Shown one piece after another: positions 4,396 to 56,046 of a DNA stretch of 64,000 nucleotides. The notes under the pieces are model-generated. The model saw only the letters and a program-made list of their open reading frames with translations, did no database searches and had not been told where the DNA came from. A program made the translations under genes and the position numbers. The first letter of the stretch is position 1. Each line of letters opens with the position of its first letter. Source of the stretch: a phage; sequence record PX092659.1; one strand, given 5' to 3'.

Positions 4396-5286
4396 TTATA
4401 CCAAATCTTTGAGCGATTCAGCAACTAAAATTTCAATACGTTTTGCTAACATATCAATTTCATCTTTGTTTAAATCACCTGGGTCTTTACCTTCAGGCAG
4501 AAGAAAGTTAGCCACTACAGGCGTTAAACGCGTTTTTGTACGAATTAGCTTGGCCAACGCTTGTGCAGCTTTATTACCAGAAGCATCATTATCTAGTAAG
4601 ATAACAACAACTTTTACACCAGCAATAATATAAGGACTGAACTTATCTGCAATGTTATCCGAGGTAAACTGATGTGTACCAAAGCAGCAAGAAGCATAGT
4701 CTATACCATTATCCTCTAGGTTCAGCATATCAAAGATACCTTCAACTAGAATAAGAACTGGAGTATTATATCGTACAGGGAAAATCGGTGGTGAAACTTG
4801 TTTTGGTTTTACTAAGTATTTAGGAGGGGCAGAACTGTTTATAGAACGACCCAAAAATAGGATATTGCGTCCAACAGCATCTGTGATTGGGAATACAATT
4901 CTGCCTTCCCAATTTTCTTGGTGTTGGAAAGCAAAATATTTCTTCAAGGTCTTAGAACTTATACCTCGGAAATCACCTTCGAAAAGAAAGGCAGATTCTG
5001 GGATTGCAAGATTCGTAGATCCATTTCTAATTTCAGAAATTTTTTTACGTACTTGGGATAGTCTTGGAGATTGTCTATATTGAGTTTCATTAAAATAATG
5101 ATAAATACTAGGTATACCTTTGCCAAAACCGCAACTCAAACAGTGCATAATCCCGGTTTCAGGATCAATACGCAAACTTGGGTGTTTATCGTCATGATCT
5201 GGATTCAGGCAGCATATAAGAATATCTCCTCCAGTATCTTTATACTCAATTCCTTTCAGATCAAGTAGTTCTGTTATTCTACTCAT
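4396..5286 (-). CDS. DNA primase (zinc-binding plus TOPRIM)
   Basis: 296 aa; N-terminal Cys-rich zinc motif (CCLNPDH...HCLSCG); TOPRIM-like acidic motifs EGIFDM and LLDND. Confidence 0.7.
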   Translation of the reverse strand: MSRITELLDLKGIEYKDTGGDILICCLNPDHDDKHPSLRIDPETGIMHCLSCGFGKGIPSIYHYFNETQYRQSPRLSQVRKKISEIRNGSTNLAIPESAFLFEGDFRGISSKTLKKYFAFQHQENWEGRIVFPITDAVGRNILFLGRSINSSAPPKYLVKPKQVSPPIFPVRYNTPVLILVEGIFDMLNLEDNGIDYASCCFGTHQFTSDNIADKFSPYIIAGVKVVVILLDNDASGNKAAQALAKLIRTKTRLTPVVANFLLPEGKDPGDLNKDEIDMLAKRIEILVAESLKDLV

Positions 5287-7912: not shown

Positions 7913-8680
7913 TTATTCAGCAGCCGCAGCTTTTGCATCCAGTTTAGCACGCTTAGCGGCACCATCATAGTCCTTAGCAACCAGACCACGACGGGACAGC
8001 ATAGATTTAACACCACGCTCAGACTTACCAGTTTTCTCAGCGATCTCAGCAACAGTCATGTTAACCAGATCCAGACCTTCTAACAGATCTTCACGAGTTT
8101 TAGCACTTGAAGTTTCCTGTACCGGCATAGCCGCAATACGACCTTCACGGAGCAGGCTCAGAGCTTTACCACGGATCTGCTTAATATTGCGACCGAAGTG
8201 AGCAGCGATAGCTTCAATAGTAGCACCAGCAACAACCTGATTAACAAAGTCAGTTTCTTCATCCGGAGTGAAGGAACGAACAGCAGCAGCTTTTTCAGTT
8301 GGTTTAACAGAAGCGGTCATTTCCAGACTCAGGATCTTACCCTGTACCTGTTTAGCACCAAACTGACCACCAGCTACAGCAGCAGCGATTTCAGCATAAG
8401 TATACTGACCAGCATGAGCGTTCAGGAAATCAACCAGTTCAGCTTCCTGCTCAGGAGTCCACGGGGATTTCTGTACTTCGTTAGCTTTCTGTACTTCGAA
8501 ACCTTCTTTACGCAGCTTAGAGCCAACAGAGCGAGCGGTAACGTCTTTGCCAGTTTCAGCAGCCAGTTCAGCAGCGATAGCCGCTACTTGTTCTTGAGAG
8601 ATTACAGCAACACCCAGAGCAGTGGCTTTTGCTTTCAGAGACTCGGTTACACCTTCTACGTTCCAGTTCAGTTTAGACAT
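7913..8680 (-). CDS. hypothetical Ala/Lys-rich protein with internal repeats (possible DNA-binding early protein)
   Basis: 255 aa; three internal repeats of the form AEIA...G...K; position next to the ligase resembles the D5-type gene of T5-like phages. Confidence 0.45.
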   Translation of the reverse strand: MSKLNWNVEGVTESLKAKATALGVAVISQEQVAAIAAELAAETGKDVTARSVGSKLRKEGFEVQKANEVQKSPWTPEQEAELVDFLNAHAGQYTYAEIAAAVAGGQFGAKQVQGKILSLEMTASVKPTEKAAAVRSFTPDEETDFVNQVVAGATIEAIAAHFGRNIKQIRGKALSLLREGRIAAMPVQETSSAKTREDLLEGLDLVNMTVAEIAEKTGKSERGVKSMLSRRGLVAKDYDGAAKRAKLDAKAAAAE

Positions 8681-9455
8681 TATTATTTTTCTCCAATAGT
8701 TCTTTAATCGACAGGATTTCTATCCCATTCGTTTCGGCTTTCTTATAAGATGAGGAAGAACGCTTCGATTCATCCTCACAGATTAGGTATTTGACGTCTT
8801 TGGTAACGGATTTCTTAACCGTATATCCTAGACCTTCTAAATAGTTTGTTGCATCCGTTCTATTTGCAAAATCTTGCAAAGATCCGGTAATACATACCGT
8901 TATTCCGTTTGGTTGGGCTACTAGACCATCAGTGATGATGACCTCAGCTTTAGCACCTTTAATACCGGTTGTGAATTTCCATGGTAATTCGATAACATCC
9001 TTGCCTTGTGGGGAATTTAGCCAGGCTTTATAATTTTCTCCAGCTTTGCCATCAGCTCTCACATCATGGAAGCTAGTGCAATTTTGGGATAATTTCTTTG
9101 CTGCAACCTCTCCAATTAGAGGGATTCCTAAAGAACCGAGAACTGAACCAAAGTCAATGTCTCCGCGAACTTTAGTATTTAATTCGCTAATTAACTTAGC
9201 GGCAACCTTGCTACCCACGGCTCTAACCAAATCTTCTTCGGTTAGGTAAAATAGTTCTGAAATCTTCGTCAGCTCCAGCTTCTCAATAGTTTTTGGGCCA
9301 AAGCCCTTTAACTTCATTTTTGTACAGAAGTTCTCAATTAACTTACTTGACTGCGCTGGACAGTTGGACTTATTCCTACAGAATAATTGTCCGTTGACAA
9401 GATCTAGCTTAGAACCACAAGAGGGACATTGTGTTGGAATTTCGATTTTCATCAA
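8673..9455 (-). CDS. ligB: NAD-dependent DNA ligase, C-terminal subunit (zinc finger / HhH / BRCT)
   Basis: 260 aa; Cys4 zinc finger CPSCGS...CRNKSNC; HhH-like and BRCT-like C-terminus (VCITGSL); complements the adenylation-domain ORF at 9655-10626. Confidence 0.75.
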   Translation of the reverse strand: MMKIEIPTQCPSCGSKLDLVNGQLFCRNKSNCPAQSSKLIENFCTKMKLKGFGPKTIEKLELTKISELFYLTEEDLVRAVGSKVAAKLISELNTKVRGDIDFGSVLGSLGIPLIGEVAAKKLSQNCTSFHDVRADGKAGENYKAWLNSPQGKDVIELPWKFTTGIKGAKAEVIITDGLVAQPNGITVCITGSLQDFANRTDATNYLEGLGYTVKKSVTKDVKYLICEDESKRSSSSYKKAETNGIEILSIKELLEKNNNV

Positions 9456-9482
9456 ATTTCTTCCTTATCAATTTATATAAAT

Positions 9483-9511
9483 ATTATAGCAAGTATTTAA
9501 GCATTTAGCAA
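9483..9511 (-). promoter_or_regulatory. sigma70-type early promoter (minus): TTGCTA-N17-TATAAT
   Basis: Reverse complement reads TTGCTA, 17-nt spacer, TATAAT; member of the repeated cassette. Confidence 0.65.
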
Positions 9512-9575
9512 CTACAATTTTAACTAACTTTGCTCACCCTCGCCATAACTTTCTATCCCTCAACTGAATGATAAT

Positions 9576-9604
9576 AGTATATACCTAAGCGGCGAAAATG
9601 TCAA
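9576..9604 (-). promoter_or_regulatory. second promoter class (minus): TTGACATTTTCGC-type
   Basis: Reverse complement reads TTGACA ttttcgccgcttaggta TATACT; shares a 13-nt identity TTGACATTTTCGC with the promoter at 39953-39981. Confidence 0.55.
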
Positions 9605-9654
9605 TAACCACTTTATAATTCCGATATGGTAGATGGGTAGCAAAGGGTTATGTA

Positions 9655-22858: not shown

Positions 22859-23708
22859 TGATTATTTCCTCGATAAACTTTATAGCTACTTTTGGTTCAA
22901 TATTGAAGAATTCCGTAGCGCCATCAAAATCTTTGTAATGGCAATTCTGTTCTTTAAAGTAGTTATGAGCTAATTTTTCGATTCGAACTGCACTACTATA
23001 TTCGCCAATTTCAAATACTTTAAGTATTTCCAAATCAATAAGGTGGCCACTAGATTTAATATGTAGAAGCCTACGCTCTGGATTGTTAGACCTACCTATT
23101 TTAACTCCATGTGTGGGGCTATGCATAACATATATCTTAGTACTTTCTAAATCTCTATAGCTACAGTAAGGACAACCGTTCCCTCTTAATACAGATCCTG
23201 GAGTAGCTCCCCACCTATGCCCTGCGCCACAGAGAAAGGTAGTCTTAGTATTCGCATTAACATATTCACCTACTATTCTGATATTTCTGGCAGTAAGACG
23301 ATCATTTATAACACTAATACTAAGTTTCTGCTTATTAATAGCACAAGACGGACAGCCACTCCCCCTATTAATTATGCTATTAAGCGTAGTAGTCCACTCA
23401 TGACCACAAATACACCTAAATTTAGTGTTTATATCAACACTATTTTTATATCCCCCCAACAATGTAATACCTCTGTCCTGTAATACAGAACTAATTTTAT
23501 CAATATCTAGTTTACGGCTATTAGTAGAGCAAGTAGGACAATTGGTCTTTCCATTCCTAATAGCGTCAAATTTAGCTGTCCATTGATGGCCATATTCACA
23601 CTGATACGTATGCCTATACCTAGAATTTTGATACGGCTTATCCACCATAGTAAAACCACGCTCGGCTAGGCATTTATCTACTTCTTCTTGGGTTAATTTT
23701 TTCGGCAT
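22845..23708 (-). CDS. Zn-ribbon repeat protein with C-terminal T5orf172-like (GIY-YIG superfamily) domain
   Basis: Track ORF runs to 23765 but overlaps the promoter; ATG at 23708 (MPKKLTQEEV) with GGAGAAGAG upstream is the likelier start. Repeated CxxC units, then IYVMHSPTHGVKIGRSNNPERRLLHIK. Confidence 0.55.
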   Translation of the reverse strand: MPKKLTQEEVDKCLAERGFTMVDKPYQNSRYRHTYQCEYGHQWTAKFDAIRNGKTNCPTCSTNSRKLDIDKISSVLQDRGITLLGGYKNSVDINTKFRCICGHEWTTTLNSIINRGSGCPSCAINKQKLSISVINDRLTARNIRIVGEYVNANTKTTFLCGAGHRWGATPGSVLRGNGCPYCSYRDLESTKIYVMHSPTHGVKIGRSNNPERRLLHIKSSGHLIDLEILKVFEIGEYSSAVRIEKLAHNYFKEQNCHYKDFDGATEFFNIEPKVAIKFIEEIINDRE

Positions 23709-23736: not shown

Positions 23737-23765
23737 ATTATACTAAACATTATCCACCATGTCAA
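23737..23765 (-). promoter_or_regulatory. sigma70 promoter (minus): TTGACA-N17-TATAAT, leftward arm of divergent region
   Basis: Reverse complement gives TTGACA tggtggataatgtttag TATAAT. Confidence 0.6.
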
Positions 23766-37198: not shown

Positions 37199-38146
37199 AT
37201 GTTTAATACTAAAAATATGAAAGAACTGACTTCTGAGCAGAAAGTAATTCGTACTATTAAACGTTGGGGTATTGGTGCTGTAGTTGGTTTAGCAGGCTTG
37301 ATTCTAGCCTTTAATTCATATACTATTGTTTCTGATGGTACGGTTAAAACTCAAACATTTCTGGGTAAAGTAGATCCTAACCCAGTATTACCAGGTTTCC
37401 ATCTTGTAAACCCCTTTGCATCTTTCGACACTTTTAGTACAAAAGATATTGCTGTAAAATTAGATAAACTTCAAGTTCCTAGTCAGGATAAATTTAAATC
37501 CACTGTTGACCTGACTGTTATGTTGCAGTTTGATGGTTCTAAGGCACCGATTAACCGTATTAATGCGGGTACTCAGGATCAAGCGTTAGACAAATATGTA
37601 ACTGAAAAATTACTGTCTACTATTCGTGAGTTTGGTAAGTCTGTACCTAAAGCACAAGATTTGTTTGATGCTAAAATTCAGGCTCAATTGCAAACTGCAA
37701 TTCAACAGGAAGTTGAAGAGTATGCACGCCCATATGGTTATACAGTTAAGCAGGTATTCCTTCAGGATATTACTTTGCCACCGGTAATCATGGAACAGGT
37801 ACAGAATACCAAAGTTCGTGAAGAACAGGTTAATGCTGCTAAAGCTGAATTAGCTCGTGTTGAACAGGAAGCACAGCAAAAAGTTAAACAAGCAGAAGCA
37901 GATCGCGAAGCTCGTAATAACCAAGCTATTGCCAATGAGCGTGACGCAGATGCCAAACTGTACGCAGCTAAGAAAGAAGCTGAAGCTAACGCCGCGTTGC
38001 AACGTACCATTACTCCTGAGATGATTCGCTGGAAGCAACTGGAAGTTGAAATGATTCGTGCTCAGAAATACCAAGGTGGTGTACCGCAGACTGTGGTTGG
38101 CACTGGCTATGATGGCCAAATGATTATGGATATGCGTAATAAATAA
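37199..38146 (+). CDS. SPFH/band-7 (prohibitin/HflC-like) membrane protein
   Basis: 315 aa; N-terminal TM helix (IGAVVGLAGLILAF), SPFH-like core, C-terminal Ala/Glu/Gln-rich coiled coil. Confidence 0.7.
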   Translation: MFNTKNMKELTSEQKVIRTIKRWGIGAVVGLAGLILAFNSYTIVSDGTVKTQTFLGKVDPNPVLPGFHLVNPFASFDTFSTKDIAVKLDKLQVPSQDKFKSTVDLTVMLQFDGSKAPINRINAGTQDQALDKYVTEKLLSTIREFGKSVPKAQDLFDAKIQAQLQTAIQQEVEEYARPYGYTVKQVFLQDITLPPVIMEQVQNTKVREEQVNAAKAELARVEQEAQQKVKQAEADREARNNQAIANERDADAKLYAAKKEAEANAALQRTITPEMIRWKQLEVEMIRAQKYQGGVPQTVVGTGYDGQMIMDMRNK

Positions 38147-38170
38147 TACCCGCATGTAACATCTGAAATA

Positions 38171-38205
38171 AGCCCTGCGTTTCCTGGAGAGCGCAGGGCT
38201 TTTCT
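38171..38205 (+). terminator. rho-independent terminator
   Basis: AGCCCTGCG ... CGCAGGGCT stem followed by TTTTCTG. Confidence 0.75.
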
Positions 38206-38256: not shown

Positions 38257-38470
38257 GTTTGGTTCTTTAGAACCATATACTCTTGTTACAGCAACCACCC
38301 ATACGGGAGGCCAATCTTGACTGAAAATCTACTCTAGGGGGCAGGATAAGAGTAGGCTTAAAGGCAAACGGATTGAACGCCGGTATTTGTGTAAACATTG
38401 CTGGAGAGCAACAACGTGCTACAGGCATTGGGCAGCACGAAATAGATTTTCTGCAACACATAATTTCTCC

Positions 38471-38887
38471 TTAGGAGTTATTACCACCATTTTGAGCTTT
38501 TGCAACTTGGCTTTGGCAGAAGCTATTAAACTTACCCATAAGTGATACAAGCTGTTTCCCATCCTCTGTCTTTGCGAAGTCTTCGAAAAGGGCTAGTACT
38601 GCCTGTCCTTCCGCAGAAACCTGCGGTTGTTGGGTTTGTTGCTGAACTTGCTGCTGAGGCACCTGTTGCTGCATTTGTTGAGGCATTTGCGACTGCCCGC
38701 TCATTTGCTGCATCATTTGCATAGGACTCACACTTCCAGGGTTTTGCTGGAGTTGTTGCTGCATCTGTTGCGCTTCTGCTAAACGCTGTTGCAATTGTTG
38801 TAAGTAGGGGTTATCCAGACCCGGAATGGGCTGCTGGGAGCCCATACTTTGATTAAGTCCGTTATTTACAAAACCATATTTACTCAT
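38471..38887 (-). CDS. hypothetical Gln-rich low-complexity protein
   Basis: 138 aa; about 35 percent Gln (QQLQQRLAEAQQMQQQLQQ...); part of the inverted two-gene module. Confidence 0.5.
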   Translation of the reverse strand: MSKYGFVNNGLNQSMGSQQPIPGLDNPYLQQLQQRLAEAQQMQQQLQQNPGSVSPMQMMQQMSGQSQMPQQMQQQVPQQQVQQQTQQPQVSAEGQAVLALFEDFAKTEDGKQLVSLMGKFNSFCQSQVAKAQNGGNNS

Positions 38888-38908
38888 AATGGGCTCCTCC
38901 CCTTAATA

Positions 38909-39901
38909 TTAAGCCGGCAGTTTAGCCTGCAGACCAGCCAGAGTCTGAGTGATAGCACCAAGACTTACAGCGATTTGATTAATTACCTGACCGTTAGCAC
39001 CGTTACCCGCAGCGATTGCTTCACGTAGGCGACATGCATCTAACTCATCCTGAATACGAGCAGTAGTTACACCAGCGATAGCAGTCTGAAGTTCACAGCA
39101 ACATTCAGCGATCTGACGTTCCAGAGAGTTCTGGTTAGCACACATCTGAGCCTGAACAGCGGCAAACTGGTTATTAGTTTGTAAAGTCTGCTGGAAAGCG
39201 ATCTGTGCAGAATCAAACTTATCTTGTGCACGAGCTATCTGATTAGCTGCGAAAGATTGATCAATCTGGCGAGAAAGATCGAACTGACCCTGAATAACGT
39301 TGCGAGTTTCCTGACAGATCTGATTAGACAGATTAGCACCTGTACCATAGATCGTAGTTAGTACAGACTGAGTATCACGGCTCTGGTTTTGGGATGTCTG
39401 GCTAAACCCATTGTTAACTGCGCTTAAAACAGCTCCAGTACCCTGGTTAGCTTCTGTACGAGTAGTGTTAATAGCTGCTAGAATACTAGCGGTATCTTGG
39501 TTCTGAAGTACTGCATCAACTGCGGTACCATCACCAACTACACCACGTCCACCGAATCCACCGAAACCACCGAATCCGCCTGTTAATAGAGCACCGATTA
39601 GGATAGCTCCGAATAGTCCCATACCTTCACCACCGAAAGCACCTGCGTTTGCTGGGTAACCACCCAGTAGGCCAGGGAAGCCACTAGTAAATACGTTTAC
39701 TGGTTCTTGCATTTTATGTTTTCCATATTTATGACAATGTTCATCGTCATCTTCTTCATCATCGTGTTCACGATGTTTTTCTTCGTAGGCTCTGACCTTC
39801 TCCCACTTTTTCTTATCTGATTCCTCGTGACGGTGCAGTTCTGCTGCAACGCTAGCGACGGTCTCAGGACTCTTAGCTACTTCTTCTGTCATTTTTGACA
39901 C
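38909..39901 (-). CDS. hypothetical membrane protein with glycine-zipper TM segment and Gln/Asn/Cys-rich C-terminal domain
   Basis: 330 aa; acidic/His-rich N-terminus, Gly-zipper TM (GLFGAILIGALLTGGFGGFGGFGG), Q/N/T-rich C-terminal half with Cys clusters (AECCCELQ); AGGAGGTG RBS. Confidence 0.55.
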   Translation of the reverse strand: MSKMTEEVAKSPETVASVAAELHRHEESDKKKWEKVRAYEEKHREHDDEEDDDEHCHKYGKHKMQEPVNVFTSGFPGLLGGYPANAGAFGGEGMGLFGAILIGALLTGGFGGFGGFGGRGVVGDGTAVDAVLQNQDTASILAAINTTRTEANQGTGAVLSAVNNGFSQTSQNQSRDTQSVLTTIYGTGANLSNQICQETRNVIQGQFDLSRQIDQSFAANQIARAQDKFDSAQIAFQQTLQTNNQFAAVQAQMCANQNSLERQIAECCCELQTAIAGVTTARIQDELDACRLREAIAAGNGANGQVINQIAVSLGAITQTLAGLQAKLPA

Positions 39902-39952
39902 CTCCTAGTATATAGAAAATGTGTGTCTCTTTGATCACTCATCCATAACATA

Positions 39953-39981
39953 TACTTTACACTACCCCAGCGAAAATGTCA
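39953..39981 (-). promoter_or_regulatory. second promoter class (minus): TTGACATTTTCGC-type
   Basis: Reverse complement reads TTGACA ttttcgctggggtagtg TAAAGT; shares the 13-nt TTGACATTTTCGC with 9576-9604. Confidence 0.55.
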
Positions 39982-40098
39982 AGGGGTCTTTAAAAATTGC
40001 CCCTGAATTTTTAGTGGGGTCACAAATTTTGGTCCTCACCATTTATCTGCTATCCTTAAGTGCCCTATGATTTTCCTCTAAAAAGTTAAAAAATTTGA

Positions 40099-40127
40099 TT
40101 GCTTGAATGCTAAATTCTCTGTATAAT
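40099..40127 (+). promoter_or_regulatory. sigma70-type early promoter: TTGCTT-N17-TATAAT
   Basis: Cassette match. Confidence 0.6.
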
Positions 40128-40157
40128 ATATCTATAAATTTGAAAGAGGAACCAAAT

Positions 40158-40676
40158 ATGAATGTTGATGAGCTAACACAGCACCTCTTATCTAGAGGAT
40201 TTGATACAGATAAATATCATTGCTGGTTAAGTCCGGAAGGATGGCTAACAGTCCCGTTGTATGACTTCTCTGGGATGTTGAGGGGCTATCAAACTTATAA
40301 TCCTTCTGCTCCAAAAGGTCATGGTAAGTGCCCCTTTGAAGCTAAATACTTTACTTATTCTACTACCCAGTGTGTATGGGGACTAGAAACTCTCAATGGA
40401 GATGAAAAAGTAGTATTGATTGCTGAATCTGTATTTAAGGCAGTTGCGTTACATAATGCTGGTTATCCAGCCCTAGCAATGTTGGGTTCTTCTCCAGGAA
40501 AAGCGTTATTAAAGCAACTGAAATTACTACCTTTTAAATTGGTAGCTGTCGGAGATAATGATCCTGCGGGTGAAAAATTTGCTAGAAAATTAAACGGCTT
40601 TGTTTCTCCCGTAGATGTGGATGAGATGTCTACCGAAAACTTGAAAAATTTTCTTGCTATGAAGCTAAATTTCTAA
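40158..40676 (+). CDS. small TOPRIM-domain-like protein
   Basis: ATG 40158 after GAAAGAGGAAC RBS (track ORF extends to 40107); TOPRIM-like Glu (LIAESVFK) and DxD (AVGDNDPAG). Confidence 0.45.
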   Translation: MNVDELTQHLLSRGFDTDKYHCWLSPEGWLTVPLYDFSGMLRGYQTYNPSAPKGHGKCPFEAKYFTYSTTQCVWGLETLNGDEKVVLIAESVFKAVALHNAGYPALAMLGSSPGKALLKQLKLLPFKLVAVGDNDPAGEKFARKLNGFVSPVDVDEMSTENLKNFLAMKLNF

Positions 40677-55930: not shown

Positions 55931-56046
55931 TATCTAAAATTCTTCTTGACAACGACAAAATTTTATGCTCCAGAAGTGATCTTTAAAAACACATTGTAAT
56001 TTTCCTCCAAAATTAGTATAATGGTACTGGTTAGAGGAGGTTACAA

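What the first reader, a model, noticed from the sequence alone, without database searches (positions are those of the whole stretch)
9576..9604. Second promoter family sharing the 13-mer TTGACATTTTCGC (also at 39953-39981)
Two minus-strand sites, upstream of ligB and upstream of the inverted two-gene module, share an identical TTGACATTTTCGC -35 region followed by a -10-like hexamer at 17-nt spacing. This differs from the dominant cassette and may mark a distinct temporal class or host-RNAP-only promoters.
Basis: seen in the sequence. Interest (0 to 1): 0.4.

Follow-up and report, generated by a model that had tools for sequence, protein, structure and literature searches.

The report
Two known T5 phage promoters
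The two sites are real host-type promoters of a T5-like phage that public T5 records already annotate as P-K28b and P12, and the 13 bases they share are the textbook -35 box plus a few loosely constrained spacer bases, so the finding is ordinary.

Summary
TTGACATTTTCGC occurs exactly twice in the window, both on the minus strand (9592-9604 and 39970-39982). Each copy is followed after 17 nt by a -10-like hexamer, TATACT or TAAGT-type TAAAGT.

The window is the early region of a T5-like phage (Demerecviridae). Site 1 lies inside the promoter that the T5 GenBank record calls P-K28b. It is the upstream member of a tandem pair ahead of ligB-D5. Site 2 lies inside annotated promoter P12, which drives an oppositely oriented three-gene module (327, 138 and 64 aa).

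The two are not a cassette family:
- Similarity stops at the 13-mer, and the flanks match at chance level.
- At P12, bases 11-15 are the only variable patch across 23 relatives. T5 itself reads TTGACATTTTCTC.
- The shared prefix ranges from 9 to 15 nt in 17 genomes.
- Distant relatives keep a TTGAC-type promoter ahead of ligB, but with unrelated spacers.

Both belong to a mixed minority of T5 promoters with a consensus -35 and an imperfect -10. They lack the early cassette (AAAAATT / TTGCTw / TGTATAATATATT / CATAAATTGA). A distinct timing class is possible but untested. All T5 classes use host sigma70 RNA polymerase. Verdict: already known, low interest.

The parts
9592..9604 (-). Shared 13-mer TTGACATTTTCGC, copy 1: the -35 hexamer (9604-9599) plus the first 7 spacer bases
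9576..9581 (-). -10 hexamer TATACT of P-K28b, 17 nt from the -35; no TG extension
9550..9624 (-). Homologue of the annotated T5 'promoter P-K 28b' (AY543070 66366-66440). Start site inferred at about 9569, because the 75-nt T5 promoter features run from -55 to +20 (checked on P-N25, whose start site I took from memory).
   Evidence: 98.7% identity to T5
9457..9531 (-). Downstream tandem partner, P-K28a, an early-cassette promoter (TTGCTA at 9511-9506, TATAAT at 9488-9483, discriminator ATTTAT, inferred start about 9476)
9468..9567 (-). Long imperfect hairpin predicted in the leader of P-K28b transcripts. Its 3' arm is the P-K28a promoter sequence, so it is absent from P-K28a transcripts.
   Evidence: -29.5 kcal/mol, z -4.1; T5 z -4.5; antisense z +0.28; no DNA inverted repeat
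8673..9452 (-). ligB (NAD-dependent DNA ligase subunit B; BRCT and HhH domains), the first gene downstream of the tandem promoters
7913..8680 (-). D5 homologue (DNA-binding protein), the next gene in the same transcription unit
39970..39982 (-). Shared 13-mer, copy 2: the -35 hexamer (39982-39977) plus 7 spacer bases
39954..39959 (-). -10 hexamer TAAAGT of P12, 17 nt from the -35
39927..40001 (-). Homologue of annotated 'promoter P12' (AJ604531 9990-10064; T5 37954-38028). Inferred start about 39946. The 54-nt leader runs to the ATG at 39892. It is divergent from P15a (about 40080-40154, +).
38267..39892 (-). Three-gene module read from P12: 327 aa (38909-39892), 138 aa (38471-38887) and 64 aa (38267-38461). 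No Pfam match for the two larger proteins; they fall in PHROGs of unknown function. The 64-aa ORF was not searched.
38170..38201 (+). Strong hairpin-plus-T terminator that closes the module. It is annotated as a bidirectional terminator in relatives.

Best explanation
Both sites are ordinary, already catalogued promoters for the host sigma70 RNA polymerase in a T5-like phage. Site 1 is the homologue of P-K28b. It is the upstream member of a tandem promoter pair between ligA and ligB and reads ligB, D5 and the replication genes beyond. Site 2 is the homologue of P12. It sits back-to-back with P15a and reads a three-gene module of unknown function that ends at a bidirectional terminator.

Both promoters pair a perfect -35 hexamer (TTGACA) at the optimal 17-nt spacing with an imperfect -10 (TATACT, TAAAGT). 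They lack the TG extension, the ATATT discriminator and the +1 CATAAATTGA block of the dominant early cassette. They are therefore inferred to depend on sigma region 4 contact with the -35 rather than on an extended -10.

The shared 13-mer is that consensus hexamer plus seven spacer bases. Those bases follow the general T5 spacer trend (T/A-rich, then a C/G patch) and are only loosely constrained. It is not a dedicated regulatory motif, and the two promoters are not copies of one cassette.

Shown here: the sequence features, the homology to annotated promoters, the conservation pattern and the lack of flank similarity. Inferred: the start sites, dependence on the -35, and activity in this particular phage.
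For: - The window is 98% identical to T5 across the ligA-ligB spacer and up to 99.9% identical to T5-like phages across the P12 region.
- The sites fall inside the annotated features 'promoter P-K 28b' and 'promoter P12'.
- The consensus scan ranks them 11/12 and 10/12 with 17-nt spacing, the best hits in their regions.
- At P12, the -35, the following TTTT, the -10 region and the whole leader are invariant or nearly so in 23 sequences from two genera. Variation clusters at positions 11-15 of the spacer. This is the expected signature of a -35/-10 promoter.
- T5 has TTGACATTTTCTC at P12, and the shared prefix is 9-15 nt across 17 genomes.
- Distant ligB relatives (54-58% protein identity) keep a TTGAC(A/G)-N17-TATACT/TATAAT promoter upstream of a cassette promoter, but with unrelated spacers.
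- The flanks of the two sites are unrelated: 15/50 and 17/50 identities, local-alignment p 0.70 and 0.34.
- There is no further copy in the window or in the 121.75-kb T5 genome.
- Spacer composition in 40 T5 promoters predicts about 0.6 promoter pairs sharing 7 post-hexamer bases, and several cassette pairs share 8-12.
- All T5 classes use Esigma70 (PMC7472727). The dominant consensus TTGCTw/TATAATA/AAAAATT/TAAATT is published (PMC3326045).
Against: - Among only 15 TTGACA sites in the window, two sharing the next 7 bases has a nominal probability of about 0.01.
- In two relatives the identity extends to 15 nt, and 17 of 23 relatives keep the full 13-mer at P12. Some shared constraint or shared origin of the -35-proximal spacer cannot be excluded.
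- No transcript 5' ends were available for this phage, and the primary paper on P-K28b (Gentz and Bujard 1985) could not be read. Experimental support therefore rests on GenBank feature names and on my recollection of that work.
Confidence: 0.82

Rival explanations
1. The two promoters, possibly with the holin promoter (T5 TTGAAATTTTCC; window 55994 TTGTAATTTTCC), form a functional sub-class inside the early region. They depend on the -35 and lack the ATATT discriminator. They would therefore be handled differently from cassette promoters when the phage remodels host RNA polymerase (gpT5.026, D5), for example by staying active after early shut-off.
For: - PMC7472727 states that all early promoters identified so far carry ATATT in the discriminator, and suggests that this element underlies the opposite effects of gpT5.026 on early and late transcripts.
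- P-K28b has ATTATC there and P12 has ATATGTT.
- P-K28b shares GTTATTGACA and the -10 TATACT with the late promoter P-J5.
- A differently built promoter in tandem with a cassette promoter ahead of ligB is kept in distant relatives. That is easier to explain if the two are used differently.
- D5, needed for late transcription according to the T5 record, lies in this unit.
Against: - No expression data exist for either promoter.
- P12's discriminator matches ATATT in 4 of 5 positions.
- TTGACA-type promoters occur in pre-early, early-region and late contexts, so the -35 does not define a class.
- TTTTC after the hexamer is expected in about 0.3 of the other 38 T5 promoters from spacer composition alone (computed from the frequencies), so the holin promoter adds little.
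Confidence: 0.15
2. The shared 13-15-mer is a remnant of common descent: one promoter core was copied to the other location by duplication or recombination, and the flanks have since diverged or were never copied.
For: - The nominal probability of the match among TTGACA sites is about 0.01.
- The identity reaches 15 nt (TTGACATTTTCGCCG) in two relatives.
- Cassette promoters in T5 clearly form paralogous families.
Against: - There is no similarity outside the 13-mer.
- The -10 hexamers differ.
- A 13-nt tract is too short to establish homology.
- The promoter at the P-K28b position in distant relatives has a different spacer.
Confidence: 0.1
3. TTGACATTTTCGC(C/T)G is an operator bound by a phage or host DNA-binding protein that overlaps the -35. 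One candidate is D5, which carries a sigma region-4-like helix-turn-helix.
For: - D5 hits Pfam Sigma70_r4_2 at E 1.1e-6, above the family cut-off.
- D5 is described as a DNA-binding protein involved in early shut-off.
- TTGACATTTT is invariant at both sites in close relatives.
Against: - Bases 11-15 vary freely at P12.
- There are only two sites and there is no dyad symmetry.
- Distant relatives do not keep the spacer.
- The Pfam match covers only a 27-residue generic helix-turn-helix.
Confidence: 0.04
4. The sites are chance consensus matches with no promoter activity.
For: The number of promoter-like hits in each region is no higher than in shuffles.
Against: - They are the top-scoring hits, intergenic, correctly oriented and annotated as named promoters in T5 records.
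- The hexamers are invariant across 23-29 relatives while the P12 spacer drifts.
- TTGACA is otherwise strongly avoided in this genome, with 15 sites against 40 expected.
Confidence: 0.03

Closest known systems
Bacteriophage T5 promoter P-K28b (feature in AY543070; from memory, one of the promoters selected by function by Gentz and Bujard, J Bacteriol 1985)
   Same: Site 1 is its direct homologue. It shows 98.7% identity over 473 nt, with identical -35, spacer, -10 and start region, and the same position between ligA and ligB, in tandem with P-K28a.
   Different: Nothing material. The one window-specific substitution seen in this region is an A-to-G change in the leader (GGGTAAGC to GGGTGAGC).
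T5 / phage 5 promoter P12 (features in AJ604531 and AY543070)
   Same: Site 2 is its homologue. It has the same divergent arrangement with P15a and the same downstream 327, 138 and 64 aa ORFs and terminator.
   Different: The spacer reads CGCTGGGG here and in most relatives, against CTCCTGGG in T5. This is why T5 itself lacks the second copy of the 13-mer.
T5 early promoter cassette (P-N25, P-N26, P-H207, P-K28a and others; consensus TTGCTw-N17/18-TATAATA with AAAAATT at -43 and TAAATT at +1, PMC3326045)
   Same: Same polymerase (host sigma70 holoenzyme), same 17-nt spacing, the same genome region, and an A/T-rich tract near -45.
   Different: The two sites have a -35 of TTGACA rather than TTGCTw. 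They have no TG extension, a non-consensus -10, no ATATT discriminator and no CATAAATTGA start block.
T5 late promoter P-J5 and pre-early promoters P-H22 and P-D/E20
   Same: They also have a consensus TTGACA -35 with an imperfect -10. P-J5 shares GTTATTGACA and TATACT with P-K28b.
   Different: They lie in the late and first-step-transfer regions, outside this window, and their spacers are unrelated. No timing data exist for P-K28b or P12.

Membership tests
sigma70-type (-35/-10) promoter | -35 hexamer close to TTGACA | tested here: met
   6 of 6 at both sites
sigma70-type (-35/-10) promoter | -10 hexamer close to TATAAT with A2 and T6, at 16-18 nt | tested here: met
   TATACT (5/6) and TAAAGT (4/6), both at 17 nt
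sigma70-type (-35/-10) promoter | Intergenic, oriented towards a downstream gene | tested here: met
   Site 1 is 117 nt upstream of the ligB ATG and site 2 is 54 nt upstream of the 327-aa ORF, measured from the inferred start sites
sigma70-type (-35/-10) promoter | Hexamers conserved more than the spacer in relatives | tested here: met
   P12: hexamers invariant in 23 sequences while spacer positions 11-15 vary. P-K28b: close relatives are uninformative because the whole spacer is invariant, but distant relatives keep TTGAC and the -10 and change the spacer.
sigma70-type (-35/-10) promoter | Transcription initiates there with Esigma70 | not testable with these tools
   This rests on the feature names in AY543070 and AJ604531. 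The primary paper is not held.
T5 early promoter cassette | -35 TTGCTw, TGnTATAATA, ATATT discriminator, CATAAATTGA at +1, AAAAATT near -43 | tested here: not met
   Neither site carries these blocks. The definition is taken from PMC3326045 and PMC7472727.
   Two copies in the window, one in the complete T5 genome, and none in the late or terminal-repeat regions of T5
   The 13-mer is intact in 17 of 23 relatives at P12, the shared prefix is 9-15 nt, and variation falls within the motif's last bases
   Flanks match at 15/50 and 17/50; local-alignment p 0.70 and 0.34
T5 late promoters (P-J5, P-G25) | Transcripts accumulate from about 30 min; located ahead of late (structural) genes | tested here: not met
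   The location criterion is not met, because both sites lie in the early region ahead of replication or unknown genes. Kinetics cannot be tested here.

The most novel reading that the evidence does not exclude
P-K28b and P12 (perhaps with the holin promoter) are a -35-dependent, ATATT-less promoter class embedded in the T5 early region. This class would escape the gpT5.026/D5-mediated early shut-off. The conserved tandem P-K28b + P-K28a arrangement would then give ligB-D5-replication genes two phases of expression, with the structured P-K28b-specific leader marking the second mRNA form.
Probability: 0.12. Interest if true: 0.4.

Novelty: already known. Interest (0 to 1): 0.12.

Why it matters
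It matters little. The result confirms that the scan can recover real promoters outside the dominant cassette, but both are already annotated in T5-family records. The one open question it touches is how T5 switches between temporal classes with a single host polymerase. Promoters that lack the early discriminator yet sit in the early region would be cheap test cases for that question.

Tried and rejected
- An exact 14-mer scan of IMG/VR (TTGACATTTTCGCT) returned over 120 unrelated contigs. A 14-mer recurs by chance in a collection that large, so the scan was uninformative and I did not repeat it for the other 14-mer.
- Literature searches for K28b, K28a, Pk28b and for T5 start-site maps found nothing relevant. 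Gentz and Bujard 1985 is not held.
- The supplement of PMC7472727 holds only the legend of the early/late promoter alignment, not the sequences.
- Rfam found only tRNAs in the window and nothing at either site.
- I looked for extended homology between the two promoters and found none.
- I looked for a DNA-level inverted repeat at site 1 and found none. At site 2 only weak repeats appeared (CCCC...GGGG around the -35), and these are not kept in T5 or in L040.
- I considered 'TTGAnATTTTC' as a three-member motif including the holin promoter. I rejected it as not significant against the position-specific spacer composition of T5 promoters.
- The P12 leader shows no unusual folding (z -0.75).

Full report
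**What is there**

The 13-mer TTGACATTTTCGC occurs exactly twice in the window, at 9592-9604 and 39970-39982, both on the minus strand.

At site 1 the -35 hexamer TTGACA (9604-9599) is followed by a 17-nt spacer and TATACT (9581-9576). At site 2 TTGACA (39982-39977) is followed by 17 nt and TAAAGT (39959-39954). An independent consensus scan lists them as the best promoter-like hits of their regions, at 11/12 and 10/12 matches. The second is one base off.

**Where the window comes from**

Megablast places the window in the T5 group (Demerecviridae, Markadamsvirinae). It is 98% identical to T5 across ligA-ligB and up to 99.9% identical to phages SP15, EH1 and phiLLS around site 2. No single record matches the whole window; the best records are 93-97% identical over 87-94% of each 25-kb query. 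The window corresponds to the early region of T5, roughly T5 12-76 kb, in reverse orientation.

**Both sites are already annotated promoters**

In the T5 record AY543070, site 1 falls inside 'promoter P-K 28b' (66366-66440). This lies 93 nt upstream of 'promoter P-K 28a', between ligA and ligB, and D5 and D6 follow ligB.

In AJ604531 (phage 5) and AY543070, site 2 falls inside 'promoter P12'. It is back-to-back with P15a and reads ORFs of 327, 138 and 64 aa that end at a bidirectional terminator.

The 75-nt T5 promoter features run from -55 to +20. I checked this on P-N25, taking its start site from memory. That frame puts the start sites at about 9569 and about 39946, consistent with the hexamers above.

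The names P-K28a/b come, to my knowledge, from the functional promoter selection of Gentz and Bujard (1985). I could not read that paper.

**How the two differ from the dominant cassette**

Extracting all annotated T5 promoters and scanning the window shows the dominant early cassette: AAAAATT near -43, TTGCT(A/T), a G/C patch in the spacer, TGTATAATATATT and CATAAATTGA at the start. The same consensus is published for the T5-like phage AKFV33 (PMC3326045).

P-K28b and P12 have none of these blocks. They share only a consensus -35, the 17-nt spacing and an imperfect -10 without a TG extension.

Other T5 promoters with TTGACA are:
- P-H22, and the TTGACA-N17-TAAGAT site at 4718 that lies inside the broad P-D/E20 feature (pre-early region); I equate that site with P-D/E20 from memory
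- P-J5 (late)
- the nrdD promoter

The window also has a third TTGACA-N17-TATAAT site at 23765-23737(-) with an unrelated spacer. A TTGACA -35 therefore marks a mixed minority, not one class.

**Is the 13-mer a motif?**

Several tests say no.

1. There is no third copy in the window. The complete T5 genome has only the P-K28b copy, because T5's P12 reads TTGACATTTTCTC.
2. In 17 genomes where both sites were recovered, the shared prefix is 9, 10, 11, 13 or 15 nt.
3. In an alignment of 23 P12 regions from Tequintavirus and Epseptimavirus, the -35, the following TTTT, the -10 region and the 54-nt leader are invariant or nearly so. Positions 11-15 from the start of the hexamer are the variable patch. 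The last bases of the 13-mer thus lie in the least constrained part of the promoter.
4. Relatives whose ligB is only 54-58% identical keep a tandem arrangement: a TTGAC(A/G)-N17-TATACT/TATAAT promoter followed by a cassette promoter. Their spacers begin ACACGTC, TCGCGAC or TACACAT.
5. Outside the 13-mer the two promoters are unrelated. Ungapped identities are 15/50 and 17/50, and local-alignment scores sit within shuffles at p 0.70 and 0.34.

**Chance**

Repeated 13-mers are common. The window has 305, and simulations of the same size give about 93-162.

Restricting to TTGACA sites (only 15 in the window), two sharing the next 7 bases has a nominal probability near 0.01. In simulations with about 40 TTGACA sites it happened in 11 of 200 runs.

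T5 promoter spacers are not random, however. They are A/T-rich at positions 7-9 and G/C-rich at 10-13. With those position-specific frequencies, two promoters share all 7 positions with probability 7.9e-4. That gives about 0.6 pairs among 40 promoters, and several cassette pairs share 8-12 bases.

I conclude the identity is mildly unusual for this pair but weak as a post-hoc observation. Shared ancestry of the core cannot be excluded.

**Mechanism**

All three T5 temporal classes are transcribed by host sigma70 holoenzyme (PMC7472727). 'Host-RNAP-only' is therefore not a distinguishing property.

The most likely mechanism is plain sigma70 initiation, in which a perfect -35 at optimal spacing compensates for a weak -10. 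This is an inference from promoter anatomy.

A separate timing class remains possible. PMC7472727 reports that early promoters carry ATATT in the discriminator and proposes this as the basis of gpT5.026's opposite effects on early and late transcripts. P-K28b has ATTATC there and shares GTTATTGACA...TATACT with late P-J5. P12 has ATATGTT. No expression data bear on either promoter, so I give this reading about 0.15.

**Side observations**

The 130-nt leader of P-K28b transcripts folds into a long hairpin (9468-9567) whose 3' arm is the P-K28a promoter sequence.
- Minimum free energy is -29.5 kcal/mol, z -4.1, with 0 of 200 shuffles as stable. For T5, z is -4.5.
- The antisense strand does not fold (z +0.28) and there is no DNA inverted repeat. 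The structure therefore relies on G-U pairs and is specific to the sense RNA.
- Distant relatives give z of -0.2 to -2.0.
- The few substitutions in close relatives are split between pair-keeping and pair-breaking.

TTGACA is strongly depleted in the window, with 15 sites against 40.4 ± 6.1 expected.

D5 carries a short sigma region-4-like helix-turn-helix.

**Verdict**

Both promoters are already known, and interest is low.

Noticed in passing
window 9468-9567 (-): The leader of P-K28b transcripts folds into a long imperfect hairpin (-29.5 kcal/mol, z -4.1; T5 z -4.5; 0 of 200 shuffles as stable). Its 3' arm is the P-K28a promoter sequence. The antisense strand has z +0.28 and there is no DNA inverted repeat, so the structure is RNA- and strand-specific. 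Transcripts started at P-K28a lack it. It could be an RNase III site or a stabiliser. Distant relatives give z -0.2 to -2.0, and covariation is inconclusive.
   Followed up: partly
whole window (both strands): The consensus -35 hexamer TTGACA is strongly depleted: 15 sites against 40.4 ± 6.1 in 200 Markov simulations. TTGACT is also low (27 vs 44.7), while TTGCTA and TTGCTT are enriched. T5 has 53 TTGACA sites in 121.75 kb.
   Followed up: partly
window 7913-8680 (-), D5 homologue: D5 is described in the T5 record as a DNA-binding protein needed for late transcription and early shut-off. It matches Pfam Sigma70_r4_2 at residues 204-230 (E 1.1e-6, 28.7 bits, above the cut-off). The match is only a short helix-turn-helix.
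   Followed up: no
window 39893-40160; loci L178-L180: The divergent P12/P15a intergenic region, including the whole 54-nt P12 leader, is almost identical in Epseptimavirus phages whose downstream 327-aa protein is only 73-75% identical. The non-coding DNA is better conserved than the gene it drives. The leader itself shows no unusual fold (z -0.75).
   Followed up: partly
window 23737-23765 (-): A third TTGACA-N17-TATAAT site with both hexamers at consensus lies 30 nt or so upstream of an ORF starting at 23707 (MPKKLTQEEV...), ahead of the nrdD-like 608-aa ORF. Its spacer is unrelated to the 13-mer, and this stretch differs from T5.
   Followed up: partly
T5 AY543070 99910-99984 (P-J5), outside the window: P-K28b resembles the late promoter P-J5 more than it resembles P12 in its functional elements. 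Both have GTTATTGACA, a 17-nt spacer and TATACT.
   Followed up: no
window 9519-9545 (-): A mini-ORF ATG GCG AGG GTG AGC AAA GTT AGT TAA (MARVSKVS) with GAGGGA upstream lies between the two tandem promoters. A distant relative has a comparable 9-codon ORF, but its sister (L036) has lost the ATG, so it is probably not meaningful.
   Followed up: partly
window 40009-40024 (-): A TGTGA-N6-TAAAA element (like a CRP half-site) is centred about 70 nt upstream of the inferred P12 start. It is conserved in most close relatives but reads TGTTA in the Epseptimavirus phages.
   Followed up: no
window 55994-56022 (+): The promoter of the holin/endolysin genes also departs from the cassette. It carries ATTTTCC right after its -35 (TTGTAA here, TTGAAA in T5), resembling the start of the 13-mer extension. 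This is not significant against T5 spacer composition.
   Followed up: partly
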